Of a DNA stretch of 43,472 nucleotides, positions 1,599 to 41,249 are shown piece after piece. Below the pieces are notes generated by a model, which was not told the origin of the DNA, made no database searches, and saw only the letters and a program-made list of their open reading frames with translations. Location of the stretch: UHGV virus genome UHGV-0252305; one strand, given 5' to 3'. The position numbers were made by a program, and so were the translations under genes. Source of the stretch: a virus. Positions within the stretch are counted from its first letter, which is position 1; each line of letters opens with the position of its first letter.

Positions 1599-1627
1599 TT
1601 GACATGTGAATAGTTCGCTATTATAGT
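1599..1627 (+). promoter_or_regulatory. Sigma70-like early promoter TTGACA-17-TATAGT with AATAG-N4-CTATT inverted repeat
   Basis: Near-consensus -35 and -10 at 17-nt spacing; inverted repeat at 1609..1622; 29 nt upstream of gene 1656. Confidence 0.6.
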
Positions 1628-1655
1628 TAGCCCATACCAAACGAGAGGGGCAGAT

Positions 1656-1883
1656 ATGAACACAATCACTGGGGCCATAGCTAAAGGTTTTCGAGCAATT
1701 TTCGGCGCTCCGCAAGAAGTGTGCACAAAACATAAATTTGTACTTTCTTGCGTAGTAGGGGATGAGTTTGATGGGTTCGATAAACTTGTTGTCTGTGACC
1801 ATTGCGGGCAAGAAGCTATTCAACACTCAAACGGTAAATTTGAACTAATAGACGATAGCCTTACTGAAGGCGACGGTGAGTAA
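1656..1883 (+). CDS. Hypothetical early protein with four Cys (possible zinc ribbon)
   Basis: First gene downstream of early promoter; Cys pattern C-x8-C ... C-x2-C; RBS GAGAGGGG. Confidence 0.55.
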   Translation: MNTITGAIAKGFRAIFGAPQEVCTKHKFVLSCVVGDEFDGFDKLVVCDHCGQEAIQHSNGKFELIDDSLTEGDGE

Positions 1884-1907
1884 CTTACACAAACAGGAGA
1901 GAAACAA

Positions 1908-2408
1908 ATGTTAGAGAAATTCTTAGTATTGCTGGAACGTTTCGTAGTTGCACATGAACTGATTGCCGCGAACAGTGCGAAACAAGTTGTTCAGGTTGCC
2001 GCGCCGCTGGAAGTAGAGACTGTATCGTACACCAAAGAAGCGGTAGCTGAGTGCGCTGAAGAAGCAACAAAAGAAATCCCGGTAGAAGGTGAAGACATCG
2101 TTGACACTAAACCGGCAGAAGAAGAGAAGCCAAAACGCAAGCCGCGTAAAGCTAAAGTAGAGGAAACGACGCCAGAGCCGGAAGAAGAGAAAGAAGAAGT
2201 AGACTATAAGTCTCTGCGCGACCAGATTCAGGCTATCGACGATGCAATTAACGAAGGTCCGAGCGATGCCGCGTGCGATGATTCTGATGAACTGCTGGAA
2301 GAGTTCACAGGTAAGAAAATGAAGATTGCAGCGATTAAAGACGAAGACCTGGCTGAATACCTGGAACGCTTGACAGCAATCAAGAACAAGTATTTCGAAG
2401 AAGAATAA
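1908..2408 (+). CDS. Highly acidic early protein (Glu/Asp-rich), hypothetical
   Basis: 166 aa with long E/D-rich tracts (EEEKEEVDYK, DDSDELLEEF); RBS AGGAGAGA. Confidence 0.6.
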   Translation: MLEKFLVLLERFVVAHELIAANSAKQVVQVAAPLEVETVSYTKEAVAECAEEATKEIPVEGEDIVDTKPAEEEKPKRKPRKAKVEETTPEPEEEKEEVDYKSLRDQIQAIDDAINEGPSDAACDDSDELLEEFTGKKMKIAAIKDEDLAEYLERLTAIKNKYFEEE

Positions 2409-2415
2409 CTATCTC

Positions 2416-2434
2416 GCGGCCTTCGGGCCGCTTT
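2416..2434 (+). terminator. Weak intrinsic terminator or attenuator
   Basis: Stem gcggcc/ggccgc, loop ttcg, followed by only TTT. Confidence 0.4.
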
Positions 2435-2451
2435 AACTGAGGGTCGGAATT

Positions 2452-2724
2452 ATGATTTACCAACTCTACCGAGCCGTCGACAGGCGGGATAACACAGAGG
2501 CGCTATGGCTATTGCGTGCTCCGTCCGGTGCGCACCAGATGGAAGAGATGGCGTACTTAGGAAAAGTACCACGGCCTAAAGATACAGGCCGTCACGTGTC
2601 ACAGATTAAGCGCACAACTTTCGCCAAGCCTGACTTTTATGTCTTCGAGTCGATGTATGGGTGGGCCATGCACTGCGACCATAAGACACGACATTTAATT
2701 GACCAGTGGGAGAACAGGGTATGA
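2452..2724 (+). CDS. Hypothetical protein
   Basis: 90-aa ORF, stop overlaps next start (ATGA). Confidence 0.5.
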   Translation: MIYQLYRAVDRRDNTEALWLLRAPSGAHQMEEMAYLGKVPRPKDTGRHVSQIKRTTFAKPDFYVFESMYGWAMHCDHKTRHLIDQWENRV

Positions 2725-3962
2725 TTCTAAAAGAACGCGGTGGCAATAATGATGTGCACGCCTTATTGTCGCCGTCAGGTGCTAAGAAGTGGCTGACGTG
2801 CAGTGCATCACTGGCCTGTGAAAAAGATATTCCTAACACGTCAGGTAAAGCTGCCGTTACGGGGACCGCCATGCACACCATAGCTGAGGTCCATCTCAAC
2901 ACCTATATACGCGGCACTGCGTTGCCGTTGGAGCGTGAAGTCGGCGCTTACGTACTGGATGAAGGCAAAGGTCAGATTAAGGCGCTAATCAGCCCGATGA
3001 AAGGCGCGGTACTGATTACGGCGGACATGATTGAGCAGGTGCGCAAGTACACCGACTACTGCAAAGCGATTATAGACGTAGCGACTTACGCCAAGCTGGA
3101 AATGCGTGTCAATCTTACTGAGGTATTGCATCCGGGGTATGAAGGCGTTGAGACGTTCGGAACCGCTGACCTCGTTGCTGTCCAGGAACTGGCAAACACC
3201 GACGAGCACATGCTCATTATCGGCGACCTGAAAACCGGGCGGCATCGCGTCGAAGCGAAAGAAAACAAGCAGCTTATGCTTTACGCTCTCGGTGTTTATC
3301 GTCGACTCAAGAGACGTTATAACATAACAACCGTTCGTCTGGTCATCTTCCAGCCTTACGCTGGGGGCGCGACAGAGTGGGACATCTCGGTTGAAGGACT
3401 GGAACTGTTCGCTAAGTTCGCACAGAAACGCGCGCTGTTAGCGCTTGATGCGTATTTCCGTGGCAAGAAGAACCTGAAAGCGTCGGACTTCAAGCCATCG
3501 GTAGATGGTTGTCAGTGGTGCCGGTTCTCTGAACAATGCGCTGCGCGTACAAAGACGGTTAATTCTGTACTGGCGGAAGAACTGGAAGACGACTTTGTGC
3601 TGGAACTGACGCCGGAGCAACTCGTAGCTGAGTATGAGAAGTTGCCGCTGTTGCGCCAGCACATCGACAAGGTTGAGAAAGCTATGGCGGCCGCGTTGCA
3701 TTCAGGTAAGAAAGTTCCTGGTTACAAGTTGGTTGAAGGCCGCCCGGGTAATCGTGCATGGAAAGACGCGGAGAAAGTAACAGAACTCTACGGCGACAAG
3801 CTGACTAAAGAAGTGCTCATGTCACCTACCGAAGCTGTTAAAGTCATACCGGAAGAAGAACTGAAAGACTTCATTACCCGTAAGCCAGGCGCACCATGTG
3901 TCGCAACGGCAGACGACAAACGTCCTGAGTGGAATCAGGTAACAGAGGAGGATTTGGAATGA
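2721..3962 (+). CDS. Cas4-like / RecB-family PD-(D/E)XK nuclease with Fe-S cysteine cluster
   Basis: D...IGDLKTG...QLMLYAL nuclease motifs; N-terminal Cys (LTCSA) plus C-terminal CQWCRFSEQC (C-x2-C-x5-C); ATG at 2721 has SD GGGAG, track GTG start at 2706 does not. Confidence 0.75.
   Translation: MILKERGGNNDVHALLSPSGAKKWLTCSASLACEKDIPNTSGKAAVTGTAMHTIAEVHLNTYIRGTALPLEREVGAYVLDEGKGQIKALISPMKGAVLITADMIEQVRKYTDYCKAIIDVATYAKLEMRVNLTEVLHPGYEGVETFGTADLVAVQELANTDEHMLIIGDLKTGRHRVEAKENKQLMLYALGVYRRLKRRYNITTVRLVIFQPYAGGATEWDISVEGLELFAKFAQKRALLALDAYFRGKKNLKASDFKPSVDGCQWCRFSEQCAARTKTVNSVLAEELEDDFVLELTPEQLVAEYEKLPLLRQHIDKVEKAMAAALHSGKKVPGYKLVEGRPGNRAWKDAEKVTELYGDKLTKEVLMSPTEAVKVIPEEELKDFITRKPGAPCVATADDKRPEWNQVTEEDLE
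3945..3962 (+). repeat. Second copy of the 18-nt gene-junction repeat
   Basis: Identical to 975..992. Confidence 0.8.
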
Positions 3963-4162
3963 TTCAAGTAAATGAAATGCCCACAGATAAAGATTTTGTG
4001 ATGATATGGCGCTGGGGCGGTTATATCCATTCGGAATCGTTTACGTTCCTGAACGGCACGATGGTGCGATACAACCATGTGGAGGATGAATTCGAACCCG
4101 TTGATATGAATGATTTCGAGAACATAGTCCGTATTGCGAAATTTTATTTGACACCTGAATAG
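3959..4162 (+). CDS. Hypothetical protein (67 aa)
   Basis: ATG overlaps upstream stop (ATGA); same SD-containing 18-nt sequence as at 975..992. Confidence 0.5.
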   Translation: MIQVNEMPTDKDFVMIWRWGGYIHSESFTFLNGTMVRYNHVEDEFEPVDMNDFENIVRIAKFYLTPE

Positions 4163-4176
4163 TTAGCTATTATAGT
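4148..4176 (+). promoter_or_regulatory. Promoter-like site TTGACA-17-TATAGT with AATAG-N4-CTATT
   Basis: Inverted repeat at 4158..4171; upstream of SSB-like gene. Confidence 0.55.
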
Positions 4177-4235
4177 TCTAATCACTGACCGGGCAGCTTC
4201 CCGGAGTAAACGAAACTTAAAAGCGAGAAATTAAG

Positions 4236-4862
4236 ATGGGTATTAAACTGAATCTGCGTAAAGTAAACACTGCTTGGGTTAACGTATTTGAACGTGAAAA
4301 AGACCGTGAAAACGATGATGGCTCAATCACTAAAGGCCAGTACAGCGCGACTATCATCCTGCCGTCTGACCATGCTCAAATCGATGCACTCTACGACACC
4401 GTTTACGCTGTAGTTGAAGAAGCGTTAGGCGCAGCCGCTGCCGAGAAATGGATGAAGTCCAACTACGGTGAAGGTAAGCACATGGATAAATGCGCGATTA
4501 AAGACATTGCCGAGCGCGACAATCCGTTTGAAGACTTCCCGGAAGGCTTCTACTTCAAAGCGAAGGCACAGAAACAGCCGCTGATTGTAACCTCTAAAAA
4601 AGGTGAGACTCAGGTAGAGCAGGACTTCAACGTAGACGGCGAACAGATTGAAGGTGAACAGGTTTACAGCGGATGCTTAGCTAACGTAAGCGTTGAAATC
4701 TGGTTCAGCCAGAAATACAAAGTCCTCGGCGTTAACCTGCTGGCGATTAAATACGTTGGCGAAGGCAAAGCGTTCGGCGGTTCTAAAGTCGCCGCGAGCG
4801 TCAATGACCTGGAAGATGACGAAGAAGATGAAGCACCGCGCCGTGAACGTCGTCGCCGCTAA
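4236..4862 (+). CDS. Putative single-stranded DNA-binding protein (DUF2815-like) with acidic C-terminal region
   Basis: N-terminal pattern resembles phage DUF2815/SSB family as I recall it; acidic tail DLEDDEEDEA; sits between nuclease and polymerase genes. Confidence 0.45.
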   Translation: MGIKLNLRKVNTAWVNVFEREKDRENDDGSITKGQYSATIILPSDHAQIDALYDTVYAVVEEALGAAAAEKWMKSNYGEGKHMDKCAIKDIAERDNPFEDFPEGFYFKAKAQKQPLIVTSKKGETQVEQDFNVDGEQIEGEQVYSGCLANVSVEIWFSQKYKVLGVNLLAIKYVGEGKAFGGSKVAASVNDLEDDEEDEAPRRERRRR

Positions 4863-4883
4863 TATCTGAATCAATTTTAACTA

Positions 4884-4905
4884 AGGCCCTTCATTGGGCC
4901 TTTTT
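4884..4905 (+). terminator. Intrinsic terminator after SSB-like gene
   Basis: Stem aggccc/gggcct followed by TTTTT. Confidence 0.65.
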
Positions 4906-4922
4906 ACTAGGGGTCAAAAATA

Positions 4923-7094
4923 ATGAGTTACCTGTTCTTAGACTTTGAAACATTCTCAGAAGCCGATTTGAAGAAAGTCGGTTCTTACGCTTACGCCGAA
5001 CACCCGTCAACCGAAGTGCTTATCTGTACATATGCTTTTGACGACGAACCTGTGCGGGTATGGGATTGCACCGACGGCAGCGACATGCCGGGGGATTTAC
5101 ACCGCGCACTGCGCCGCCTTGTTAAGCCCAACAGCCGCATCAAGATGGTGTGGCACAACGGTGGACTTTTCGATCGCCTAATCATGAAACACTGCTGGGA
5201 CTTTGATATTCCGGTAAGTAACACCATTGATACTATGATTTGGGCGTTCCGTCACGCGCTGCCGGGTTCTCTTGATGCGCTGTGCGAAGTGCTGGGCGTG
5301 TCTACAGACAACGCGAAAGATAAACGCGGCAAGGCTCTGATTAAGCGTTTCTCTAAACCGACGCCGAAGAACTACAAAATCCGCCGCTACACCGCAGAAA
5401 CTCACCCTGACGAGTGGGCGATGTTCATCAGGTACGCCGTGAGCGACATCACTGCGATGCGTGAAGTCTTCCATAAGCTGCCGCGTTGGGGTAACTCCGA
5501 GTTCGAAGACCGTGTACTGGAACTGGACCAGTTGATTAACGACCGCGGATTTAAGGTTGACGTTGCACTGGCAGAAGCCGCGATTGAAGCCGTGGAGAAG
5601 CACAAAGCGCAGCTACAGGAAGAAGCACAGCGCAAATACGGCGGCTCGCTTACTGGTAAAGACTTCCTGCCGATTCTGCGTGAACTTGCACCAGCGCACC
5701 GCATCCACAACGCGCAGAAGTCTACGCTTAACGACCTGTTGGCGGATGATGATTTACCGGACGACGCACGCACGATTATCGAAATGCGCCTCGGGGCCGC
5801 GTCCACAGCGTCAACGAAATATAACCCGCTGCTGTTAGGGCGCTCGTCGGACGACCGCCGTCGTGGTTGCATTCAGTACGGCGGAGCCAAGCGTACATTA
5901 CGATTTGCCGGTAAAGGCTTTCAGCCGCAGAACCTCGCGCGTGGGTACTATCACGATGATGAACTGGATAAAGGTATTTCAGCGTTACTTAAGGGCCGCG
6001 CCCATCGCCGTTTCGATGTGGCCAAGCTAACGGCATCGACCGTTCGTAGCTGCATCATACCGGAAGCAGGGCATAAGTTTGTCGTTGCCGATTACTCTAA
6101 CGTCGAAGGCCGCGGTCTTGCGTGGCTGGCGGGTGAAGACGATTTAATCGAAGTATTTGTAAACGGGGTTGATGTGTATAAGAAACTCGCATCAACGGTG
6201 TTCAATGTTGCATATGAAGCCGTAACAAAGGACCAAAGACAAATAGCCAAAGCAATGGTTCTGGGACTCGGCTACGCGGGGGGCGTCGGTGCTTTCGTCA
6301 CGTTTGCTAAAAACTTAGGTCTTGATTTGAATGACATGACTAACACTTTAGACGGTACATTCCCGGACCATATTTGGGCCGCTACCGCACGCGGATACGA
6401 ATGGGCGCGTATTCAGGAAGCCAAGCGACCACCACGTCCTGGTGAAAAAGATGACCGACCCTCATATATCCTTGATAAGAAAGTTTGGCGCACCTGTGAC
6501 GCTTTAAAGCGCATGTACCGGGAAGCTAATCCTGCAATAGTCCAATTCTGGCGCGATATTGAAGACGCGGCTATGGCGGCTATCCGCAACCCAGGTAAAG
6601 AGTTCACCGCAGGGCCGCGTGGCGTTAAGTTTTCGCGCAACGTGGAGACAGATAACAACGGCAACAAAGTCGCCGGTTGGTGGCTGCGCATGACGTTGCC
6701 GTCTGGTCGCGTTATGTCTTATCCAGGCGTCGGGTTGAGCGTGTCGAAAGAAACAGACGAAGATGGAAAAGTTTCTACTAACGTGCGCATCAAGTATCAG
6801 GGTGAAAATCAGTTAACCAGGCAGTGGGGCTTCCAGTACACCTACTCCGGTAAACTGGTGGAAAACTGCACTCAGGCACTGTGCCGTGACTTGCTGGCTA
6901 ATGCGCTACTTAACGTTGAAGCAAACGGCTACCCGATTGTACTTCACGTACACGATGAGATTATCTGCGAGACACCGGATTCGCCTGAATACAATGTCGC
7001 AGAGCTTGAGCGATTGATGTGCGAATTACCAGAATGGGCGGAGGGGTTCCCTCTTGTAGCGGAAGGTCAGGAGTTAAAACGCTATGCTAAGTAA
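4923..7094 (+). CDS. Family A (Pol I-like) DNA polymerase with 3'-5' exonuclease domain
   Basis: 723 aa; exonuclease motif LDFETFS (D-x-E); polymerase motifs RQIAKAMVLGLGYAGG and VHDEIICE. Confidence 0.9.
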   Translation: MSYLFLDFETFSEADLKKVGSYAYAEHPSTEVLICTYAFDDEPVRVWDCTDGSDMPGDLHRALRRLVKPNSRIKMVWHNGGLFDRLIMKHCWDFDIPVSNTIDTMIWAFRHALPGSLDALCEVLGVSTDNAKDKRGKALIKRFSKPTPKNYKIRRYTAETHPDEWAMFIRYAVSDITAMREVFHKLPRWGNSEFEDRVLELDQLINDRGFKVDVALAEAAIEAVEKHKAQLQEEAQRKYGGSLTGKDFLPILRELAPAHRIHNAQKSTLNDLLADDDLPDDARTIIEMRLGAASTASTKYNPLLLGRSSDDRRRGCIQYGGAKRTLRFAGKGFQPQNLARGYYHDDELDKGISALLKGRAHRRFDVAKLTASTVRSCIIPEAGHKFVVADYSNVEGRGLAWLAGEDDLIEVFVNGVDVYKKLASTVFNVAYEAVTKDQRQIAKAMVLGLGYAGGVGAFVTFAKNLGLDLNDMTNTLDGTFPDHIWAATARGYEWARIQEAKRPPRPGEKDDRPSYILDKKVWRTCDALKRMYREANPAIVQFWRDIEDAAMAAIRNPGKEFTAGPRGVKFSRNVETDNNGNKVAGWWLRMTLPSGRVMSYPGVGLSVSKETDEDGKVSTNVRIKYQGENQLTRQWGFQYTYSGKLVENCTQALCRDLLANALLNVEANGYPIVLHVHDEIICETPDSPEYNVAELERLMCELPEWAEGFPLVAEGQELKRYAK

Positions 7095-7215
7095 ACTGAT
7101 TATCGCGGTACTGGCGGGATTCGCCGCAGTTGTCTACTGTCACGAGGGCCAATACGGCATGATGGTCGCCGTATTGGGTATGTTAGTAGCAATTTATCTG
7201 TGGGTGCCGGAATGA
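7084..7215 (+). CDS. Small membrane peptide (43 aa)
   Basis: ATG overlaps polymerase stop; hydrophobic; first link of an ATGA-coupled chain; translation verified. Confidence 0.35.
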   Translation: MLSKLIIAVLAGFAAVVYCHEGQYGMMVAVLGMLVAIYLWVPE

Positions 7216-7450: not shown

Positions 7451-7731
7451 CCCCGGAAGGCAAGATTCAGAAATACGCAAAAGAGCAATTCGAGGCCATT
7501 GGCGGCCTCGTTCGTAAACTTTCGTACGAGGGGCGCTCCGGCGCCCCTGACCTGCTGGTAATTCTCCCCGGCGGCATCGTCTGGTTCGTCGAGGTTAAGA
7601 AAGACGAAAACACGAAGCCAGACCCGCACCAGTTACGTGAGCATGAGCGGATGCGTAAACGCGGTGCAAATGTTTTTGTCGTTGGTTCGTTTAAACAGGT
7701 TGACGACCTAATAGCAAACTATTATAGTTAG
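7447..7731 (+). CDS. VRR-NUC domain nuclease
   Basis: 94 aa; PD-(D/E)XK-type motif PDLLVIL...VEVKK typical of VRR-NUC. Confidence 0.75.
   Translation: MTPEGKIQKYAKEQFEAIGGLVRKLSYEGRSGAPDLLVILPGGIVWFVEVKKDENTKPDPHQLREHERMRKRGANVFVVGSFKQVDDLIANYYS
7700..7728 (+). promoter_or_regulatory. Promoter-like site TTGACG-17-TATAGT with AATAG-N4-CTATT
   Basis: Inverted repeat at 7710..7723; lies in 3' end of VRR-NUC gene, upstream of 7762. Confidence 0.55.
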
Positions 7732-7761
7732 CCATACACCAACAATATAAGGAATTGAGAA

Positions 7762-7953
7762 ATGAAACACGAATACGACCGCAAACCAGCACGTGACATC
7801 GTACCGGGCGACATGATTTTCAACGTTAAGACCCGTCGGCCTGTTGCCGTGGATACGGTGTTCGTCGAGTCGAACGGTAAACTGGTTATCGAAGACGTAA
7901 CCGGCAACGTTACCGCGTTCGGGCGTAAAGAGCTTGTTCTGGTGGCAAAATGA
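7762..7953 (+). CDS. Hypothetical protein
   Basis: 63-aa ORF downstream of promoter-like site at 7700..7728; stop overlaps helicase start. Confidence 0.5.
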   Translation: MKHEYDRKPARDIVPGDMIFNVKTRRPVAVDTVFVESNGKLVIEDVTGNVTAFGRKELVLVAK

Positions 7954-9374
7954 GTAAGTTTCAAAGACGCGAGTACCAGAAGCTCATGACCTCGTTCATG
8001 CTGCAACACCCGCGCTGTAATATCTGGTGCGGAATGGGGGGAGGTAAAACCTCCTCCACTATGTGGGTGCTCAACCGCCTGTTCCGCAACGGGCAGCTTA
8101 CGGAAGAGGACCGCGTGTTAATCCTTGCCCCGTTACGTGTTGCGTCCGGTACGTGGCCCGCTGAACAAGAGAAATGGCAATTCCCTTGTCTGCGTGTCGT
8201 AGATGCAACTGGTTCGGAGAAGCGCCGCATCGCAGCGCTGGAGTCAGATGCTAACGTGGTGTGCACTAACTACGAAGTTATCGAGTGGCTAATTGACTAC
8301 TACGGCAAAGACGACTGGCCTTTTACGGTTATCGTTGCCGATGAAAGCACGAAGCTTAAATCGTTCCGCAGCCGTTCGGGTGGTAGCAAGCGGGCAAAGG
8401 CGCTCAGCAAGGTTGCGTTCGGAAAGGTTAAGCGTTTCATTAACCTGACTGGCACGCCGTCGCCAAACGGCCTCAAGGACTTGTGGGGGCAGAACTGGTT
8501 TATCGACGCTGGCGAGCGACTCGGTTCATCGTACACAGCATTCACCGACCGCTGGTTTAACTCGGTACAGAAAGGTAAATCGGCTATGGCCCGCGAGTAT
8601 CATGCACGACCGGGTGCGGATAATGAGATTCATCAGAAGATGAAAGACATCAGCCTGACCATAGACCCTGCCGAGTGGTTTGGTTGTGAAGCGCCTGTTA
8701 TCGTACCGGTGGAAATAGACCTGCCGAAGAAAGCGCGTCAGGCGTACATAGATATGGAGGAGAAGTTATTCGCAGAACTGGAGAGCGGGGAAGTTGAAGC
8801 GGCTAACGCTGCGGCGAAGACCTCAAAGTGCTTGCAGATTGCATCTGGTGCCGTGTATGTGTCAGGGCCGGATGGCGAAGCGACCAAAGACTGGGAGAAA
8901 GTGCACGACACGAAACTGGATGCGCTCGAGTCGATTGTTGAGGAGTTGCAGGGTGCGCCGTTGCTGGTAGCCTATCAGTTTAAACACGAACTGGAGCGTA
9001 TCCTTAAGCGATTCCCACAGGCACAGGCGTTCGCCAAAGGCGCTAGGGGGAACAAGCAGATGGAAGCGTGGAACCGTGGGGAAATCGAGATTTTATGCGT
9101 GCATCCTGCGTCAGCCGGGCATGGTTTGAATTTACAGGACGGGGGTCATCATCTGGCGTTCATCTCGCAAGGCTGGAACCTTGAGCACTATTTGCAGGTT
9201 GTTGAGCGCATAGGCCCAGTCCGCCAGAAACAGGCGGGTCACGAGCGCCCGGTGTTCCTTTATCACATCGTTGCTAAAGACACTCTGGACGAGGTTGTCG
9301 CCGCTCGTACAGACGAGAAAAGGTCTGTACAGGATGAACTACTTAATTATATGAAACGTAGGAGTAAGAAATGA
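7950..9374 (+). CDS. SNF2/DEAD-like superfamily 2 helicase
   Basis: Walker A GMGGGKTS; DExx box VIVADEST; C-terminal helicase domain; 474 aa. Confidence 0.85.
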   Translation: MSKFQRREYQKLMTSFMLQHPRCNIWCGMGGGKTSSTMWVLNRLFRNGQLTEEDRVLILAPLRVASGTWPAEQEKWQFPCLRVVDATGSEKRRIAALESDANVVCTNYEVIEWLIDYYGKDDWPFTVIVADESTKLKSFRSRSGGSKRAKALSKVAFGKVKRFINLTGTPSPNGLKDLWGQNWFIDAGERLGSSYTAFTDRWFNSVQKGKSAMAREYHARPGADNEIHQKMKDISLTIDPAEWFGCEAPVIVPVEIDLPKKARQAYIDMEEKLFAELESGEVEAANAAAKTSKCLQIASGAVYVSGPDGEATKDWEKVHDTKLDALESIVEELQGAPLLVAYQFKHELERILKRFPQAQAFAKGARGNKQMEAWNRGEIEILCVHPASAGHGLNLQDGGHHLAFISQGWNLEHYLQVVERIGPVRQKQAGHERPVFLYHIVAKDTLDEVVAARTDEKRSVQDELLNYMKRRSKK

Positions 9375-12387: not shown

Positions 12388-12399
12388 ATAGAGTCCTCT

Positions 12400-20175: not shown

Positions 20176-20282
20176 TCTTTAATCCTTTGGTTAAGAGGTT
20201 ACGGGTTAAGGTTAATGCGCCAGACGGGAACCACCCGCTTTTCGTGTGCGACACTAGGCGCAAAATTATTCTATCACATTAC

Positions 20283-20311
20283 TTGCACACCCCAATATAA
20301 TAGTGTACTAT
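20283..20311 (+). promoter_or_regulatory. Promoter-like site TTGCAC-17-TACTAT with AATAG-N4-CTATT
   Basis: Inverted repeat at 20299..20311; upstream of Imm-like gene and enzyme cassette. Confidence 0.5.
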
Positions 20312-20352
20312 TCACTTACACCAACGATGTTATCCCAAACAGGAGCTACACC

Positions 20353-29382: not shown

Positions 29383-29492
29383 GTTTCCCCTTTCTCGATA
29401 AGTAAAGCCCCGCCATAAAGCGGGGCGCTAGTCCTTATCATTTAAACATAGAAACGGCGTAATCTCAGTAAACCAGTTACTTTTTACACAAG

Positions 29493-29647
29493 CAATAGAG
29501 TATGGCCCTTCCGAACGCGTCAGCGTAACTACACTCAGGACTTACGTCCCGCTCCGTTACCTGCCCGCGCCGCGGTCGCTTGTTCATACTTCACAAGCTC
29601 AGGTGGAGCTTAGCACATTTTTGGTGAAAAGTCAACTATTCGAATAG
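29493..29647 (+). repeat. ~150-bp intergenic direct repeat, copy 1
   Basis: Aligns by eye with 41415..41567 at roughly 75% identity; includes 16-bp palindrome AACTATTCGAATAGTT at 29634..29649. Confidence 0.7.
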
Positions 29648-29701
29648 TTTATTCCAACATTTACAATTGAGTGGAATAACCGGAATACATAAACAAATAG
29701 T

Positions 29702-29730
29702 TTGCGCACCCCAATATAATAGGGTGCTAT
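29702..29730 (+). promoter_or_regulatory. Promoter-like site TTGCGC-17-TGCTAT with AATAG-N4-CTATT
   Basis: Inverted repeat at 29718..29731; upstream of lipoprotein cassette. Confidence 0.45.
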
Positions 29731-29757
29731 TCATTCTATCGAACCGGGGAGGCCGTC

Positions 29758-29853
29758 ATGTTAGTCGTTATTTCAGTAGTAATTGCAGTTGATGCGGTGA
29801 TGTTTCTTTGGGCTTGTAGTGGTATTGGTGACACGGGTAATGGTGAACTATGA
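29758..29853 (+). CDS. Small hydrophobic peptide (31 aa) preceding lipoprotein gene
   Basis: SD GGGAGG; ATGA overlap with lipoprotein start; translation verified. Confidence 0.3.
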   Translation: MLVVISVVIAVDAVMFLWACSGIGDTGNGEL

Positions 29854-30194
29854 AATATATTAAATTAGCAGTAGCAGGTGTTGTAGCCGTTTGTTTGAGT
29901 GGTTGCGTAAGGTCGTTGCCAGACCCGGCTTTACAGGTTTATCAGGCAGGGGATACAACGGCAACATGTAATCAGTTACTATCGAGAATCGCCACGACAA
30001 AACAAGCTCAAGCCAACGCTACGCACCGTGTTAATAAGCAAATAGGTACTAACGTTGTACTCGGTGTTACAGGCGCATTCCTGATTGTTCCGCTGTTCTT
30101 TATGGACACGGGCGCCGGGCCTTCTATGGACGAGATGACAGCCGGTAATCGTCTGTCGCAGTTACAACAAACATACGACGAGAAATGCAAATGA
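29850..30194 (+). CDS. Lipoprotein (signal peptide plus lipobox LSGC)
   Basis: MKYIKLAVAGVVAVCLSGC...; own promoter-like site and terminator; opposite strand to flanking structural genes. Confidence 0.6.
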   Translation: MKYIKLAVAGVVAVCLSGCVRSLPDPALQVYQAGDTTATCNQLLSRIATTKQAQANATHRVNKQIGTNVVLGVTGAFLIVPLFFMDTGAGPSMDEMTAGNRLSQLQQTYDEKCK

Positions 30195-32620: not shown

Positions 32621-34090
32621 TTACTCCTGTTGTTGCGCGGACTGCGGAATCTCTCCCGCTACCTGAGCAACAGAACCCAACGGCAGCGGTGCGTCTTCAA
32701 TAGCGTTCTGAATGTCCTCATCTGTCCAGTCAGTCACACCTGCCTTGCGCAACGCAGCATAGTAAGCGGTGGCGGGTAGCAGGCCAGCGTTAATATCCGC
32801 CATCCACTGAGCGCGGTCCTGAGCTGTCATAGGTTGCAGGAAGAATTCCATATTCAGCTTGAACTCAATCTCAGTATCTTCACTAAGCCCAAGCATACCC
32901 GCAACCCAGCGCAACGCATCGGTATACGCCATGCTTACATTACGTGCTATTGTTGCCATGACTGACGTGTCGGCGCCGCGTTGCAGGCGGGCCGATTCCG
33001 CGGTGATTTGCTGCGTCGGGGTGATAAGCTGCGCGCCAATCTGGATGGCCTGATTCTCTTTATCCAGCATATTCTGTTTGGCGAGGTTAGTTTCCGCCGC
33101 CTGAACCAGAAACGCATTTCCGCCGGAGCCGATGTTGTGGCCTGAACGCGACCCCATGCGTATGCCGTGTGGGTTGGCTTCTTTCCACTGCTCCATGCTC
33201 ATGTTCTCGCCGGGGGCAATGAACAGTGTCGGTTGACCTACTATAAAGCTGGCCTCTTCCACATCGGCCGAATTTCTGAAGTGTCCTATATTTAGCTCAG
33301 CTAACGGCAGTAAAGGCGCATCGTCTATAGTGGCGTCGTTGTTGCTTGCGCCAATGAACGTGAACGGGATTTTACCGCGCAACTGTTCGCCGAGTTCCGG
33401 GAAGATTTCGATTACTTCATCCTGTGCGCCACCTTCGGCATCGAAGCGGTAGATGCGCTGGCGGTAGCGACCGTCAATCAGGTCAAGGACGCGGTATTGC
33501 TCGCCGAATTTTGTTTCAAACTCAGCGCCTGGTTCCGAGTATTCCCACGCCTCACGCAATACAACCATCGTCACGCGGTTCACTGAACCGATGCGGGTGA
33601 GTCTCCAGTTGATAATGTTCTCCGCGGTATAGAATGCGATTACCGGGTTTAATAATCCCGCGTTCTGCTCTGCCGCCGTTGCTGCGGCTGTTTCCGGGGC
33701 ATCCACCAGCAACCCACCGCGTCCTATCGAGTCAATCTCCATTAACGTATCCTGCGCGTGCTGCCACAGCCCTACACCCGAACCGTCAGCGTTGTGCAAC
33801 AGGTACTCAAGTTCAGGCGGGATAATCTGCTCAGGGTCTTTGCGCATCACTGACCCCGTCATCCCCGCCAGGGTACGTTTAGTGAAGTTGTAACAGATAG
33901 CACCGTTCTCGTATTCTTCCTGGCGCTGGGCTGCGTAGGTCGGGTCAGGTTCGTTCTTCCCGACGTTGCGCAGATAGCGAATAAGGTCGCCTTCCAGCGC
34001 GTGGCGTACCTTCTGCCATTTATCGAAGTGATGCAGCCATTCCCGGTGTTTTGTCTTAACACCCTGATTCTGACCGTTCATAGTTAACAT
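32621..34090 (-). CDS. Portal protein
   Basis: 489 aa immediately downstream of large terminase, upstream of Mu-F-like gene. Confidence 0.7.
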   Translation of the reverse strand: MLTMNGQNQGVKTKHREWLHHFDKWQKVRHALEGDLIRYLRNVGKNEPDPTYAAQRQEEYENGAICYNFTKRTLAGMTGSVMRKDPEQIIPPELEYLLHNADGSGVGLWQHAQDTLMEIDSIGRGGLLVDAPETAAATAAEQNAGLLNPVIAFYTAENIINWRLTRIGSVNRVTMVVLREAWEYSEPGAEFETKFGEQYRVLDLIDGRYRQRIYRFDAEGGAQDEVIEIFPELGEQLRGKIPFTFIGASNNDATIDDAPLLPLAELNIGHFRNSADVEEASFIVGQPTLFIAPGENMSMEQWKEANPHGIRMGSRSGHNIGSGGNAFLVQAAETNLAKQNMLDKENQAIQIGAQLITPTQQITAESARLQRGADTSVMATIARNVSMAYTDALRWVAGMLGLSEDTEIEFKLNMEFFLQPMTAQDRAQWMADINAGLLPATAYYAALRKAGVTDWTDEDIQNAIEDAPLPLGSVAQVAGEIPQSAQQQE

Positions 34091-35895: not shown

Positions 35896-35987
35896 AGAAT
35901 CCCCTTGCATATGCGTCTGACCATCAGAGCGCACCAGACGCGCCCTACGCGTCTAAATGGATTATATAAGGGGATTGGGCGTGATGT

Positions 35988-36010
35988 ACAGAAAAGCCCT
36001 CCGTAGAGGG
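35988..36010. terminator. Possible terminator upstream of terminase genes
   Basis: Stem gccctc/gagggc, short interrupted T-tract; weak. Confidence 0.3.
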
Positions 36011-36117: not shown

Positions 36118-36318
36118 TCAGCAAATATCTTCCAGTACGTCGTAATTATCACTTAGATACTGGAACGCATCCCCTCTTTCTACAAACTCATCGCCAATAG
36201 CAAATGTTCCATCAGAGACATCGATTAGGAGGTCATCGCGCCCGATAAACTGGAATACCACCTGGCCTCCATCATCAAGAAGCGTATGCAGCATAAGTAA
36301 TAATAGTTTTTTGCTCAT
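36118..36318 (-). CDS. Hypothetical acidic small protein
   Basis: 66 aa; ATGA coupling with upstream gene. Confidence 0.45.
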   Translation of the reverse strand: MSKKLLLLMLHTLLDDGGQVVFQFIGRDDLLIDVSDGTFAIGDEFVERGDAFQYLSDNYDVLEDIC

Positions 36319-36551
36319 TCTCCACTCTCCTCTTTAGCAATACGTTGCTCAGTTTTAGTGATACCACGGCGCGTGAATAACACCGGGCTAGTCTTAACGT
36401 GCGTCATCAGACGATTGTTATAAATTACGTGGCGCTCACAATCAACGTCTTTACTGTACTTAGCAATCGTCATTTCGTTGATACCGGTTTGTCGGCATGT
36501 CTCCGCCATCGTACCAAATTCTTTAATCAGGTTAGGAATGCTGGTAATCAT
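36315..36551 (-). CDS. Small HTH DNA-binding protein (putative)
   Basis: HTH-like FGTMAETCRQTGINEMTIAKYSK; ATG at 36551 overlaps upstream stop (track start 36575 is GTG). Confidence 0.45.
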   Translation of the reverse strand: MITSIPNLIKEFGTMAETCRQTGINEMTIAKYSKDVDCERHVIYNNRLMTHVKTSPVLFTRRGITKTEQRIAKEESGE

Positions 36552-37728: not shown

Positions 37729-37757
37729 AATATAATAGGGTCGAGGATAATAGTCAA
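37729..37757 (-). promoter_or_regulatory. Promoter-like site TTGACT-17-TATATT
   Basis: Read on - strand, just downstream of lysis-cassette terminator and upstream of gene 37483..37695. Confidence 0.45.
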
Positions 37758-37780
37758 CTAGTCATCACAGAAAATAGATA

Positions 37781-38361: not shown

Positions 38362-38424
38362 AAAGCACCTTCCCGTAATTTATGGTTCGCGAAAACCTCG
38401 CGCAGCTTATCTGCGGTAAGTCCA

Positions 38425-38697
38425 TTATCTGAAATATTTCGAGACACGCTTATGCCCTCCGTACGACAGCCACGCCTGACGAATCTGACGCAGCGCAACT
38501 AATGTGATTAATGTCTCAGGCAGCGTCGGTGACATGCTGCCCTGTAACAGGTGGATACATCCGGCGGCGCAGACAATAGCAGTCAGAATATAAAGCACAC
38601 GCCCGAACAGCCCGTCGTCCACGTGTTCGTTATACACGTTGAACAGGGACGAAGCGCCCATTGAAAGCATTACGACAAACCAGAATAGCTCAGTCAT
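38425..38697 (-). CDS. Second lysis membrane protein (holin or antiholin-like, 2 TM)
   Basis: ATG at 38697 overlaps holin stop; two hydrophobic segments; track N-terminal extension rejected. Confidence 0.4.
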   Translation of the reverse strand: MTELFWFVVMLSMGASSLFNVYNEHVDDGLFGRVLYILTAIVCAAGCIHLLQGSMSPTLPETLITLVALRQIRQAWLSYGGHKRVSKYFR

Positions 38698-38998
38698 GTG
38701 GTCCTCCTGGGCGGGCAATATCGCCGCCCGATACGATGCCAGAAAGGCGGGAATAGATAGGCATCCAGAGAATGGCAATGATGAATCCGAGGCCCGCTAT
38801 TTCGCGTTCACCTGCGATACCGAACCATTGAGCGGCGAGAGGCGCACCGAATACGGCGCACGCAAAGCCAGTGGCGAGAAAACAGAGAGCATCGACAGGG
38901 CCGGTAATAGTGGCTTTGTGTTGCCTTAGTCCGATTACCCCTCCGGCTAGTGCGGCAGCGAGAAGCCACCCCGTCACAGTTTCAGTAAATTTATCCAA
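38690..38998 (-). CDS. Holin-like membrane protein (about 3 TM segments)
   Basis: 102 aa with three hydrophobic segments and charged C-terminus, directly upstream of endolysin. Confidence 0.5.
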   Translation of the reverse strand: MDKFTETVTGWLLAAALAGGVIGLRQHKATITGPVDALCFLATGFACAVFGAPLAAQWFGIAGEREIAGLGFIIAILWMPIYSRLSGIVSGGDIARPGGPHD

Positions 38999-39770: not shown

Positions 39771-39952
39771 TTAATGCACATACATGGAAACCCGACTCCG
39801 TAAAATTGACATTCGTGTTCACGCTGTTTCTCCTTCCACCGTACCCACATCCGCTGAACCTCTGGTTCAGCGTAGCCATTGTCTTTCCGGGCCGGGGTGA
39901 ACCCAAACCGGCTCCGGAACCATATTTCAAACTGCCGCAAAGTAAGTCCCAC
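39752..39952 (-). CDS. Hypothetical Cys-rich protein
   Basis: 66-aa ORF; overlaps upstream gene by 26 nt. Confidence 0.35.
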   Translation of the reverse strand: MGLTLRQFEIWFRSRFGFTPARKDNGYAEPEVQRMWVRWKEKQREHECQFYGVGFPCMCIKCGLKK

Positions 39953-40112
39953 TTCCTGGTAACTTGAAGCCGTTTTCAGTTCTCACCACGTTCCACTCCA
40001 TCCCGCCGTGGTACACAACCATGTCTTCTAAATCCAGGTCTATAATGGTTCCTACTTTGAAGATGCCTTTAGTCAGTTCACTGTCTCTTTTTGTAACTTT
40101 AACTTCTAACAT
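39927..40112 (-). CDS. Hypothetical protein
   Basis: First gene after promoter-like site at 40145..40173; SD GAGGAAAA. Confidence 0.45.
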   Translation of the reverse strand: MLEVKVTKRDSELTKGIFKVGTIIDLDLEDMVVYHGGMEWNVVRTENGFKLPGSGTYFAAV

Positions 40113-40144
40113 TTCGTTTTCCTCTGTCTCGTCTGTGTAAACGA

Positions 40145-40173
40145 ATAGTAGCCTATTCTATCTTAGTGCGCAA
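40145..40173 (-). promoter_or_regulatory. Promoter-like site TTGCGC-17-TACTAT with AATAG-N4-CTATT
   Basis: Inverted repeat at 40144..40157; upstream of 39927..40112 and the lysis genes. Confidence 0.5.
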
Positions 40174-40530
40174 GTAAATTTTATTGGTGTTTGTATTGTT
40201 GCATCTCCTGCAATAGCCGCTTCGATTGTTGCGTTTGGTGAAATAGAACAAAAATGAGAAAAATGATACGCTGCTGTGTAGCAGCGTAGGCCACTCAGTA
40301 AAATCCCAAACTATTGTTACAGTATAACATAACACTTCTGGCGGCTCGGGTAACGGCATCCAGTGCGTCACGTACTTATCGTAGTTATTCCAGAAAGGCT
40401 TTCTCCCGTCATCAGGAACGATGTAATAATCGTGTTGAACTGCGTTATTTAACGTTTCATACACCAGGAATTCTTTATCCGTATACCCGTTACCCGGCAG
40501 CATCTCACTACACTTAATCCACTCGCCCAT
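40153..40530 (-). CDS. DUF551-like protein; C-terminal ~60 codons of the ORF overlap a terminator and a promoter and may not be genuine
   Basis: N-terminal WIKCSEMLP ... VTHWMPLPEPP fits DUF551 as recalled; ORF continues without stop through hairpin at 40267..40288. Confidence 0.5.
   Translation of the reverse strand: MGEWIKCSEMLPGNGYTDKEFLVYETLNNAVQHDYYIVPDDGRKPFWNNYDKYVTHWMPLPEPPEVLCYTVTIVWDFTEWPTLLHSSVSFFSFLFYFTKRNNRSGYCRRCNNTNTNKIYLRTKIE
40250..40288 (-). terminator. Intrinsic terminator lying inside the 3' part of ORF 40153..40530
   Basis: 8-bp stem tacgctgc/gcagcgta then T-rich tract on - strand. Confidence 0.5.
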
Positions 40531-40533
40531 AAA

Positions 40534-40677
40534 TCACCCCTTATTCATCACAGCTTGCGCACCAGCTTTCCACGCCCGCCACGCGAGACGCGTCTTAACG
40601 TTCAGGTACTCTTTCTTCGAACCCTTATTAACCGGCAGACCCTCGACGATGGCCCACCGTTCGAATGCTTCTCTCAT
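40534..40677 (-). CDS. Hypothetical small protein (47 aa)
   Basis: Verified translation; G-rich SD; not in ORF track. Confidence 0.3.
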   Translation of the reverse strand: MREAFERWAIVEGLPVNKGSKKEYLNVKTRLAWRAWKAGAQAVMNKG

Positions 40678-40793
40678 ACCAACCCCCACAACGCGTGCAC
40701 CGCATAAACGGCGCTGACAATTAAGATAAACGGGTAATTATTCACGGCAACCTCCCTCAGAGTCGTCGGCACTAGCATCATGATTCGATGCCG

Positions 40794-41099
40794 TTAGTGT
40801 TTTACACATTCGTTGTAGGTCCATGTATAAAGTTCCTCGGGTGATTTTTCAGGCAACGCAAATGCGATTTCTGTCGCGTTAAAAGCGGTTGTATTAAGAA
40901 ACTTTTTAACGTCTTTGCTGGTATTCTGTTTAGAGGTAATCTCCAGCAGTCCCATATAAATAGTAGACTGACTTAACCCCATATCGCGTTGAGCGCCAAC
41001 GTTCTTAGTAATAGTTGCGAAGTTATCACACATCCCTTTATTTGCTGCCGTTGCGTTTACCGAAAATAAAATTGCTACTGCTGCTATTAACTTTTTCAT
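40794..41099 (-). CDS. Secreted/periplasmic protein with N-terminal signal peptide
   Basis: MKKLIAAVAILFSVNATA signal-like N-terminus; transcribed from promoter-like site at 41221..41249. Confidence 0.55.
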   Translation of the reverse strand: MKKLIAAVAILFSVNATAANKGMCDNFATITKNVGAQRDMGLSQSTIYMGLLEITSKQNTSKDVKKFLNTTAFNATEIAFALPEKSPEELYTWTYNECVKH

Positions 41100-41220
41100 C
41101 CGGCTTCTCTCTCTCTTAGTTAATTTAGGTTCTGCTTACCGGGCTTATCGACTCTTCGTATGCTCGTCGCCGATACTGACCTTATTAAAGGTTGGCCCCC
41201 TGCCTCGCCCAGATAAGTGA

Positions 41221-41249
41221 ATAGTAACCTATTATGTTGGGGTGTGCAA
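41221..41249 (-). promoter_or_regulatory. Promoter-like site TTGCAC-17-TACTAT with AATAG-N4-CTATT
   Basis: Inverted repeat at 41220..41233; ~120-nt leader to secreted-protein gene 40794..41099. Confidence 0.5.

What the first reader, a model, noticed from the sequence alone, without database searches (positions are those of the whole stretch)
1599..41249. A 14-bp inverted repeat AATAG-N4-CTATT is embedded in at least seven promoter-like sites on both strands
Perfect copies occur at 1609..1622, 4158..4171, 7710..7723, 20299..20311, 29718..29731, 40144..40157 and 41220..41233 (plus an imperfect one at 1565..1578). Each lies in the spacer/-10 part of a TTGACA- or TTGCRC-type promoter, 28-120 nt upstream of a gene start. 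For a pattern with 10 fixed positions, far fewer than one chance occurrence is expected in 43 kb. This looks like a shared operator or promoter-specificity element coordinating early genes, morons and the lysis operon. Candidate binders are the XRE protein (1319..1534), the AlpA-like protein (41664..41834) or the small HTH protein (36315..36551).
Basis: seen in the sequence. Interest (0 to 1): 0.65.

Follow-up and report, generated by a model that had tools for sequence, protein, structure and literature searches.

The report
Cro-like repressor operators in phage promoters
The repeated 14-bp palindrome is real and is most likely the binding site of a small phage-encoded 434-Cro-like repressor that sits on seven to nine early and middle promoters of this E. 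coli phage; that is an ordinary kind of gene switch, not yet tested experimentally in this phage group.

Summary
AATAG-N4-CTATT occurs 7 times (0.03 expected), plus 3 one-mismatch copies, all in promoter regions. The window is a complete kagunavirus genome (Guernseyvirinae, Jersey/K1G-like siphophage).

The sites fall into two promoter contexts. In one the dyad fills the spacer of TTGACA-17-TATAGT promoters in the replication module. In the other it overlaps the -10 of TTGCRC-17-TACTAT promoters for small early genes and moron islands. The dyad's position relative to the -10 differs by 6 bp, and its flanks point in opposite directions, so it is not a fixed promoter element.

Across about 75 related genomes and contigs, the arms are substituted at 0.8%, the 4-bp centre at 26% and the flanks at about 10%. 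Other lineages use symmetric variants (AATAC-N4-GTATT in Pantoea phage AH01) at the same junctions, tracking the recognition helix of one protein: the 71-aa XRE/HTH_3 protein at 1319..1534. Its closest solved relatives are phage 434 Cro and repressor, which bind 14-bp dyads. Two dyads sit in its own divergent promoter region in all but one lineage. The AlpA-like and NinH-like candidates are absent where the variant motif persists.

The repeat was already listed in two genome papers as an uncharacterised PHIRE hit, once mislabelled "phage RNAP promoter". No RNAP is encoded. Verdict: a new member of a known kind, of moderate interest.

The parts
1609..1622 (.). Operator O(rep1), AATAGTTCGCTATT. 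It fills the spacer of the class A promoter at 1599..1627 (+) and abuts the -35 of the divergent XRE promoter.
   Evidence: present in 41 of 41 kagunavirus loci at the same distance from XRE
1565..1578 (.). One-mismatch operator AATAGTACCATATT, 30 bp upstream of the XRE start codon, at or near the start site of the XRE promoter (autoregulatory site).
   Evidence: a proximal dyad is present upstream of XRE in all but the Klebsiella-type lineage, which has a single dyad
1319..1534 (-). XRE/HTH_3 protein, 71 aa, 434-Cro-like: the proposed binder.
   Evidence: Pfam HTH_3 E 3.9e-13; 434 Cro and 434 repressor E about 5e-6; five-helix AF2 model with TM 0.80-0.87 to 434 Cro; homolog in 489 phage records
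1583..1610 (-). Candidate XRE promoter, TTCACA-16-TAAAAT, back to back with the class A promoter.
   Evidence: consensus match only
1599..1627 (+). Class A promoter TTGACA-17-TATAGT, driving gene 1656 onwards (replication module).
4148..4176 (+). Class A promoter TTGACA-17-TATAGT with operator 4158..4171, driving the Gp2.5-like SSB (4236) and DNA polymerase (4923..7094).
7700..7728 (+). Class A promoter TTGACG-17-TATAGT with operator 7710..7723. It lies inside the last codons of the resolvase gene and drives gene 7762 and the SNF2 helicase (7950..9374).
20283..20312 (+). Class B promoter TTGCAC-17-TACTAT with operator 20299..20312 over the -10. It drives the Imm-like gene (20353), a DNA repair exonuclease and kinases.
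20268..20295 (-). Divergent, overlapping extended -10 promoter of the tail operon (TTGGGG..TGaTAGAAT). The operator is centred about 44 bp upstream of its inferred start.
   Evidence: the TGnTAGAATAATTTTGCG block is conserved in AH01, Hafnia TS33 and the cornellvirus
29702..29731 (+). Class B promoter TTGCGC-17-TGCTAT with operator 29718..29731, driving a 31-aa membrane peptide (29758) and ORF 29850..30194.
40144..40173 (-). Class B promoter TTGCGC-17-TACTAT with operator 40144..40157, driving the Gp54-like gene 39927..40112.
41220..41249 (-). Class B promoter TTGCAC-17-TACTAT with operator 41220..41233, driving the leftward small-gene cluster (40794..41099 onwards).
37749..37762 (.). One-mismatch dyad (ACTAGTTGACTATT on the - strand) overlapping the -35 of promoter TTGACT-17-TATATT (37729..37757, -), after the endolysin terminator.
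   Evidence: the same near-site is conserved in jerseyviruses
29627..29640 (.). One-mismatch dyad overlapping the -35 (TTGACT) of the promoter of a candidate small RNA, next to an everted palindrome AACTATTCGAATAGTT. Membership of the regulon is uncertain.

Best explanation
The 14-bp dyads are operators for a homodimer of the phage's own 71-aa XRE/HTH_3 protein (1319..1534), a relative of phage 434 Cro. Each monomer would read one AATAG arm, and the 4 central base pairs are not read. Every operator overlaps the core of a sigma-70 promoter: the spacer in class A, the -10 in class B, and the -35 or start site at the near-sites. A bound dimer should therefore exclude host RNA polymerase. Two operators lie between the XRE gene and the divergent replication operon, so the protein would also limit its own synthesis. 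The predicted outcome is a Cro-like turn-down of seven to nine early and middle promoters (replication module, host-takeover genes, moron islands) once XRE has accumulated. The motif-free late promoter upstream of terS would stay unaffected. Shown here: the sites, their promoter context, selection on the arms, lineage-specific half-sites that track the XRE helix, and the protein's family and fold. Inferred: that XRE binds these sites, that it binds as a dimer, and that the effect is repression.
For: Enrichment: 7 copies against 0.03 expected, and 10 against 1.18 with one mismatch. All copies are at promoters. Selection: in BLAST-anchored syntenic alignments the arms are substituted at 18 of 2176 positions (0.8%), the centre at 224 of 868 (25.8%) and the adjacent flanks at 9-11%. 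Not a fixed promoter element: the dyad centre lies at about -18.5 in class A and about -12.5 in class B, and its extended flanks are in opposite orientation relative to transcription. Family consensus AWTAS-N4-STAWT is about 10-fold enriched in every tested Guernseyvirinae genome with an XRE homolog except the Klebsiella type, and is absent from Serratia Eta, which has no homolog. Half-sites track the XRE recognition helix over 75 loci: SQGAINQ uses AATAG at 389 of 392 arms, SQSLITH at 96 of 118, TQGGIGH uses AATAC at 19 of 24, and TQSAISH uses a mix of ATTAG, AATAC and ATTAC. The G-to-C change in AH01 is symmetric in both arms at syntenic junctions. XRE is the only one of the three candidates present in all motif-bearing lineages, and it is present in 489 phage records. 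A family-type dyad (at most one mismatch) lies within 150 bp upstream of XRE in 72 of 75 loci, as a pair in all lineages except the Klebsiella type. XRE has HTH_3, its best PDB matches are 434 Cro and 434 repressor, and its five-helix AF2 model has TM 0.80-0.87 to 434 Cro. The invariant Gln32 aligns with the first Gln of the 434 recognition helix. The 434 operators are likewise 14 bp, ACAA-N6-TTGT, with an uncontacted centre (established knowledge).
Against: There are no binding or expression data. The only transcriptome paper on a kagunavirus is coarse and has no start-site mapping. The co-variation rests on about five independent lineages, so any co-diverging phage protein would show the same pattern. 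Kagunavirus and jerseyvirus XREs differ in the recognition helix yet share AATAG. The Klebsiella-type phages keep XRE but have almost no dyads beyond the one next to the gene. The class B -35/-10 assignments are consensus-poor (about 7 of 12), so repression by occlusion at those sites depends on unverified start sites. At the tail junction the same site lies about 44 bp upstream of a divergent promoter, where a bound protein could activate rather than repress.
Confidence: 0.65

Rival explanations
1. The dyads are operators, but the binder is a different protein: another small phage protein of unknown function, the AlpA-like or NinH-like protein, or a host transcription factor.
For: No binding data exist. 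The AlpA-like (HTH_17) and NinH-like proteins are encoded in the window. Kagunavirus and jerseyvirus XRE helices differ although both use AATAG. The left flank TGAAT resembles half an ArgR box (from memory, not tested).
Against: AlpA-like and NinH-like homologs are absent from AH01, which keeps variant dyads at the same junctions, and AlpA-like is absent from the cornellvirus type. A host factor should not change specificity between phages of the same host genus, yet Salmonella jerseyviruses use AATAG and Salmonella cornellviruses use ATTAG and AATAC. The conserved dyads in XRE's own promoter region are the usual mark of the autoregulated binder.
Confidence: 0.15
2. Dual-function switch: the same XRE-operator complexes repress the early and middle promoters and also switch on divergent, overlapping late promoters. 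They would do this either by direct contact from about -44 or by removing competing RNA polymerase, in the manner of lambda CI at PRM or of restriction-modification controller proteins.
For: At 20299 the operator covers the -10 of the class B promoter and lies about 44 bp upstream of the inferred start of the conserved extended -10 tail-operon promoter on the other strand. The 25-nt spacing from operator to that -10 is identical in the window, AH01 and Hafnia TS33 although the intervening sequence differs (read). The top fold matches include controller proteins C.BclI and C.AhdI. Both late-operon restarts (20175, 29382) sit beside a class B site.
Against: No comparable promoter could be identified at the same spacing at 29718 or 41220. 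The fixed spacing may simply be inherited together with the class B promoter. There are no start-site data.
Confidence: 0.12
3. Promoter-specificity element: the 20-mer tgAATAGTAccCTATTATat is itself a promoter recognised by a phage RNA polymerase or by phage-modified host polymerase, as annotated by PHIRE in PMC9825357.
For: PHIRE recovers it as the top repeated element, and two papers list it as a phage promoter or regulatory element. It always lies upstream of genes.
Against: No RNA polymerase or sigma-like gene is present. All large ORFs have other assignments, and no relative annotates one. The element is dyad-symmetric, occurs in both orientations relative to the downstream gene, and sits at two different registers relative to good sigma-70 hexamers. 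Symmetric arm changes in AH01 are not expected for an asymmetric promoter.
Confidence: 0.05
4. There is no separate function: the palindrome is carried along in promoter cassettes that spread by duplication or recombination within and between genomes, or it acts as a DNA or RNA hairpin.
For: Class B sites share about 35 bp (TTGCACACCCCAAYAT..CTATTCAC), and both classes share a leader (ACACCAAC / ACCAAACGAGAGG), which suggests common descent. The genes flanking the sites differ between genomes.
Against: Arms are 30-fold more conserved than the centre and more than 10-fold more than the flanks. Common descent alone would conserve the centre equally. Hairpin energies are only -0.9 to -2.5 kcal/mol at five of the seven sites.
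Confidence: 0.03

Closest known systems
Phage 434 Cro / 434 repressor and their 14-bp operators (ACAA-N6-TTGT)
   Same: The protein is a 71-aa single-domain HTH_3 protein. It has 38-40% identity and E about 5e-6 to 434 Cro and repressor, and the same five-helix fold. The operator is a 14-bp dyad with conserved outer arms and a free centre. The sites overlap sigma-70 promoters, and the regulator's gene is transcribed divergently from a regulated operon.
   Different: There is no OR1-OR2-OR3 tandem array. Single sites are scattered over seven to nine promoters around the genome. No partner CI repressor, integrase or lysogeny module is present. The arms are 5 bp (AATAG) with a 4-bp centre, rather than 4 bp plus 6 bp. 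The phage is classed as virulent.
Mycobacteriophage L5/Bxb1 repressor 'stoperators'
   Same: One phage repressor has many copies of a short site dispersed over the whole genome.
   Different: From established knowledge, stoperators are asymmetric 13-bp sites in one orientation relative to transcription, mostly inside transcription units, number about 24-30, and belong to temperate phages. Here the sites are palindromic, lie at promoters and number 7-10.
Restriction-modification controller (C) proteins and C-boxes
   Same: They share the XRE fold: C.BclI and C.AhdI are the top Foldseek matches. They also bind dyad sites in their own promoter region, and a dual activating and repressing role is conceivable here.
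   Different: There is no restriction-modification context, sequence identity is only about 20-28%, and the sites are spread across many operons.
PHIRE-reported 'phage promoters' in kagunavirus fBC-Eco01 (PMC9825357) and the 'regulatory element' in jerseyvirus SGP-C (PMC8790156)
   Same: They are the same element: consensus tgAATAGTa-ccTATTat-T with seven copies, and TAATAGTACCCTATTATGTT.
   Different: Those papers list the repeat without analysis. One assigns it to a phage RNA polymerase that these phages do not encode. Neither paper mentions a binder, dyad symmetry or lineage variation in the passages read.

Membership tests
434-type Cro/cI (XRE, HTH_3) repressor-operator system | HTH_3 DNA-binding domain | tested here: met
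   PF01381 E 3.9e-13, 49.6 bits against a cut-off of 23
434-type Cro/cI (XRE, HTH_3) repressor-operator system | Sequence homology to solved 434 Cro and repressor over the whole domain | tested here: met
   1zug/2cro/3cro E 5.1e-6 and 1per E 5.3e-6, covering residues 6-68
434-type Cro/cI (XRE, HTH_3) repressor-operator system | Five-helix globular fold | tested here: met
   AF2 pLDDT 84 with five helices. Foldseek TM 0.80/0.87 to 2cro, with 434 repressor, P22 C2, SinR and C proteins also matched.
434-type Cro/cI (XRE, HTH_3) repressor-operator system | Dyad-symmetric operator of about 14-17 bp with conserved arms and a variable centre | tested here: met
   (arms 0.8%, centre 25.8% substituted); symmetric arm variants in other lineages
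434-type Cro/cI (XRE, HTH_3) repressor-operator system | Operators overlap core promoter elements, including the regulator's own promoter | tested here: met
   By sequence only. Start sites are not mapped.
434-type Cro/cI (XRE, HTH_3) repressor-operator system | Tripartite OR/OL arrays and a partner CI repressor forming a lysis-lysogeny switch | tested here: not met
   Most promoters have a single site, and there are two sites 44 bp apart (start to start) at XRE. No second XRE-type repressor and no integrase appear in the window or in annotated relatives.
434-type Cro/cI (XRE, HTH_3) repressor-operator system | Physical, sequence-specific binding of the protein dimer to the sites | not testable with these tools
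   Needs EMSA, footprinting or ChIP
Phage-RNA-polymerase promoters (label used in PMC9825357) | A phage-encoded RNA polymerase | tested here: not met
   Pfam assigns other functions to nine of the ten large ORFs scanned. The 855-aa ORF, which has no Pfam hit, and the remaining large genes correspond to tail and other non-polymerase genes in relatives. No RNAP is annotated in 12 related genomes.
Phage-RNA-polymerase promoters (label used in PMC9825357) | An asymmetric element in fixed orientation and register relative to the start site | tested here: not met
   The element is a palindrome, its flanks are in opposite orientation in classes A and B, and the register relative to the -10 shifts by 6 bp.
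Mycobacteriophage-type stoperators | Asymmetric sites, orientation-locked to transcription, mostly within transcription units | tested here: not met
   The sites are symmetric and all lie at promoters.

The most novel reading that the evidence does not exclude
These nominally strictly virulent, therapy-candidate phages carry a working genome-wide repressor circuit. XRE bound at its 7-10 operators shuts the early and middle promoters, and at the two junctions where late operons restart it flips overlapping divergent promoters towards late transcription. If expressed alone, it could hold the genome in a repressed episomal carrier state that confers immunity, as claimed for the jerseyvirus SGP-C in PMC8790156. 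The symmetric half-site switches between lineages (AATAG, AATAC, ATTAG) would then define natural immunity groups.
Probability: 0.15. Interest if true: 0.6.

Novelty: new member of a known kind. Interest (0 to 1): 0.38.

Why it matters
Guernseyvirinae (Jersey, SETP3 and K1G-like phages) are widely used as biocontrol and therapy candidates and are treated as simple lytic phages, yet their transcription programme has not been studied. This analysis assigns a likely function to a repeat that two papers listed without explanation, one of them wrongly as a phage-RNAP promoter. It names the probable regulator, defines its regulon (replication module, early small genes, moron islands, and its own gene), and predicts which promoters are outside it.

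The lineage-specific symmetric half-site changes, paired with recognition-helix changes, offer a compact natural series for studying how specificity evolves in 434-type HTH proteins. The practical consequences are modest. The operators and XRE could serve as orthogonal repressor-promoter parts. The presence of a repressor circuit also bears on claims of pseudolysogeny in this group.

Tried and rejected
- **Phage RNAP promoters:** rejected, because no RNAP is encoded.
- **RNA or DNA hairpin:** rejected, because the folds are only -0.9 to -2.5 kcal/mol at most sites.
- **Known RNA family:** there were no Rfam hits in the window at gathering score, and none at E<=1 in 29400-29660.
- **AlpA-like and NinH-like proteins as binders:** rejected as general binders, because both are absent from AH01, and AlpA-like is absent from several lineages.
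- **Class B sites as promoters in the opposite orientation:** no consistent -35 was found at 29718, 40144 or 41220. Only the tail junction has a convincing divergent promoter.
- **Alternative class B promoter ATCACA-17-TATAAT:** rejected, because that -35 region varies between genomes whereas CTTGC is invariant.
- **Start-site or time-resolved transcript data:** the only paper found is a coarse RNA-seq study without start sites.
- **Experimental work on the regulator or repeat:** none was found.
- **Replacement motif in the Klebsiella-type phages:** none was found. They keep only one near-dyad beside XRE.

Full report
**1. The observation.** An exact scan finds AATAG-N4-CTATT seven times, at 1609, 4158, 7710, 20299, 29718, 40144 and 41220. 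The chance expectation is 0.03, and no shuffle reached seven. Allowing one mismatch gives ten sites against 1.18 expected; the extra ones are 1565, 29627 and 37749. Sixteen two-mismatch matches are mostly within coding sequence and look like background. An unbiased count of all 5-N(0-10)-5 palindromes puts this one first in the window. All ten sites lie in non-coding DNA or within the last few codons of the upstream gene. The seven perfect copies end 26-120 nt before a start codon.

**2. What the window is.** It is a complete, circularly permuted genome of a kagunavirus (Guernseyvirinae, the Jersey/SETP3/K1G-like siphophages). It is about 93-96% identical in parts to Escherichia phages SHAK7858 and the BASEL phages Bas70-76, and is cut inside the helicase-primase gene. 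The gene order is as follows:
- a + strand replication module at 1656-9886, with the XRE gene divergent at 1319..1534;
- tail genes on the - strand at 10051-20175;
- a + strand island at 20353-22751 (Imm-like protein, repair exonuclease, kinases);
- head and tail genes on the - strand at 22780-29382;
- a small + strand island from 29758;
- a long - strand unit from 41099 through small early genes, holin and endolysin (about 37876-38778), more small genes, terminase, portal and head genes down to 30291.

**3. Two promoter contexts.**
- Class A (1609, 4158, 7710) reads TTGACA-N4-[dyad]-ATAGTT. This is a -35, a 17-bp spacer filled by the dyad, and a -10 TATAGT that starts on the last T of the dyad. 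These are the three best sigma-70 matches in the first 20 kb. They head the three transcription units of the replication module.
- Class B (20299 and 29718 on +; 40144 and 41220 on -) reads TTGCRC-N10-[dyad]-CA. This gives TTGCRC-17-TACTAT, with the right arm inside the -10. By consensus these are weak, and the scanner did not call them. However, CTTGC is invariant across genomes, while the alternative upstream hexamer varies.

With these assignments, both classes place the shared leader ACACCAAC 6-7 nt after the -10. The dyad centre is therefore at about -18.5 in class A and about -12.5 in class B. Its extended flanks (GTG..ATA) point with transcription in class A and against it in class B. 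An element that keeps its own symmetry but changes register and orientation relative to the polymerase hexamers behaves like a protein-binding site laid over promoters, not like a promoter element.

**4. Selection.** I located the syntenic regions in 13 fetched genomes and 63 IMG/VR contigs by BLAST of 134-bp segments, not by searching for the motif. I then counted substitutions per position in the unique sequences. The arms differ at 18 of 2176 positions (0.8%), the four central positions at 224 of 868 (25.8%), the 20 bp on either side at 9-11%, and more distant flanks at 4-5%. Conserved arms with a free centre are the classic footprint of a symmetric dimer that reads two half-sites. This result also rules out simple hitch-hiking in duplicated promoter cassettes. 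Hairpin formation is negligible at most sites.

**5. Comparative evidence and the binder.** The seven positions are syntenic in five kagunavirus genomes, which carry 6-8 perfect copies each. Jerseyviruses carry TAATAG-N4-CTATTA at the corresponding promoters. Pantoea phage AH01 carries AATAC-N4-GTATT five times, plus hybrids, at the same junctions: the XRE divergent region, upstream of SSB, the tail-chaperone junction, and the spanin and scaffold junctions. That is a G-to-C change made symmetrically in both arms.

The family consensus AWTAS-N4-STAWT is about ten-fold enriched over first-order Markov controls in every Guernseyvirinae genome tested with an XRE homolog except the Klebsiella type. 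It is absent from Serratia phage Eta, which has no XRE homolog.

AH01 lacks both the AlpA-like and the NinH-like protein. XRE homologs occur in 489 phage records, about as many as match the genome backbone.

Grouping 75 loci by XRE recognition helix gives distinct half-site usage:

| XRE recognition helix | Loci | Half-site usage (arms) |
|---|---|---|
| GVSQGAINQLALG | 41 | AATAG 389 of 392 |
| GVSQSLITHLATG | 13 | AATAG 96 of 118 |
| GMTQGGIGHIVTG | 2 | AATAC 19 of 24 |
| GVTQSAISHLCCG | 6 | mixed ATTAG, AATAC and ATTAC |

A family-type dyad (at most one mismatch) lies within 150 bp upstream of the XRE start codon in 72 of 75 loci. In every lineage except the Klebsiella type, which has a single near-dyad, it is one of a pair. 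The caveat is that this amounts to only about five independent lineages.

**6. The protein.** The 71-aa product of 1319..1534 has an HTH_3 domain. Its best matches among solved structures are phage 434 Cro (also 71 aa) and the 434 repressor DNA-binding domain, at E about 5e-6 over residues 6-68. P22 C2 is more distant. A single-sequence AlphaFold model (pLDDT 84) is a five-helix bundle that superposes on 434 Cro with TM 0.80-0.87 and 38-40% identity. It also superposes on other XRE-fold proteins such as the controller proteins C.BclI and C.AhdI, HipB and SinR. Gln32 is invariant in all lineages and aligns with the first glutamine of the 434 recognition helix. From established knowledge, 434 operators are 14-bp dyads (ACAA-N6-TTGT) whose outer base pairs are read by that helix and whose centre is not contacted. 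Here the outermost A and T of the dyad are likewise invariant across lineages.

**7. Most likely mechanism.** XRE is made from a weak promoter that diverges from the first replication promoter; the candidate is TTCACA-16-TAAAAT at 1583..1610. As XRE accumulates, dimers occupy the dyads and exclude RNA polymerase from the three replication promoters, the four class B promoters, probably the promoter at 37729..37757 (near-site over its -35), and its own promoter (near-site 1565 at the start region). That is a Cro-like turn-down of early and middle transcription.

The late promoter upstream of terS has no dyad. It follows a terminator, reads TGTACA-18-TATAAT, and its TATATAATCC block is conserved across genera. 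I put the probability that the dyads are protein operators at about 0.85, that XRE is the binder at about 0.7, and that the net effect is repression at about 0.65.

One elaboration cannot be excluded. At 20299 the operator also lies about 44 bp upstream of the inferred start of a conserved extended -10 promoter (TGaTAGAAT) that drives the tail operon on the other strand and overlaps the class B promoter. Binding there could favour late transcription.

**8. What is already known.** Two genome papers found this repeat with PHIRE. The fBC-Eco01 paper gives the consensus tgAATAGTa-ccTATTat-T, lists seven copies, and labels them promoters for a phage-encoded RNA polymerase (PMC9825357). [quoted passage not shown] It also calls the XRE homolog Cro-like and reports unstable lysogens (PMC8790156). 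Neither paper analyses the element. No RNA polymerase is encoded here or in relatives. I found no experimental work on the regulator or on start sites.

**9. Verdict.** The finding is real, and the operator reading is well supported. The system is a new, experimentally uncharacterised member of the well-known XRE/434-Cro repressor-operator kind. Its sites are dispersed singly over many promoters of a nominally virulent phage rather than clustered in an immunity region. Interest is moderate.

Noticed in passing
window - strand about 29635..29500 and about 41558..41425: Two paralogous non-coding elements, 78% identical over 147 nt. Each has a conserved extended -10 promoter (TTGACT..TGnTAAGCT). 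There are 22 unique copies in 25 kagunavirus loci. A consensus fold of 12 copies gives 27 pairs, 5 with compensatory double changes (for example CG, UA and AU at one pair). There is no Rfam match. This is a candidate structured small RNA. Bas70 annotates a 36-aa ORF inside one copy. Similar paired elements were seen at the spanin and early junctions of Klebsiella phage 37P2.
   Followed up: partly
window 35930..35990 (- strand): Likely late promoter upstream of terS. It consists of a terminator hairpin, then TGTACA-18-TATAAT, then an inverted repeat AGACGCGTAGGGCGCGTCT. The TATATAATCC block is conserved in the cornellvirus, Klebsiella and Hafnia relatives. It carries no AATAG dyad, and its regulator is unknown.
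   Followed up: partly
window 39927..40112 (-): A 61-aa protein matching Pfam PF25180, 'Phage antiviral trigger protein Gp54' (E 1.9e-26). It is the first gene downstream of the 40144 operator/promoter.
   Followed up: no
window 20268..20295 (-): Conserved extended -10 promoter of the tail operon (TGnTAGAATAATTTTGCG). It overlaps the class B promoter face to face. In the window, AH01 and Hafnia TS33, its -10 starts exactly 25 nt after the dyad.
   Followed up: partly
window about 29636..29651: A perfect 16-bp palindrome, AACTATTCGAATAGTT, with the two half-sites everted (CTATT-CG-AATAG), directly upstream of the small-RNA promoter.
   Followed up: no
window 29407..29426 (-): A strong terminator-like hairpin (GCCCCGC..GCGGGGC followed by T-rich sequence) only 25 nt upstream of the spanin start codon. 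Transcripts reaching the spanin-scaffold-capsid operon must either start in that 25 nt or read through the hairpin.
   Followed up: no
downstream of the dyads at 1622, 7723, 20312, 40144 and in relatives: Both promoter classes share a leader motif (ACACCAAC / ATACCAAACGAGAGG / ATCGAAACGAGA) ahead of the ribosome-binding site, which hints at a common origin or an RNA-level signal.
   Followed up: no
L002 (OR594183.1, SHAK7858): The GenBank taxonomy line places this kagunavirus-like siphophage in Autographiviridae/Kayfunavirus. Its XRE gene (32743..32955) is not annotated, although it is 98.6% identical to the window's.
   Followed up: no
L009 and L068-L074 (Klebsiella-type Guernseyvirinae): These phages keep the XRE gene but have almost no family dyads other than GATAC-TATA-GTATT beside the gene. 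Their spanin and early junctions carry repeats of TCGCAAAATTTTGCGA-like palindromes instead.
   Followed up: partly
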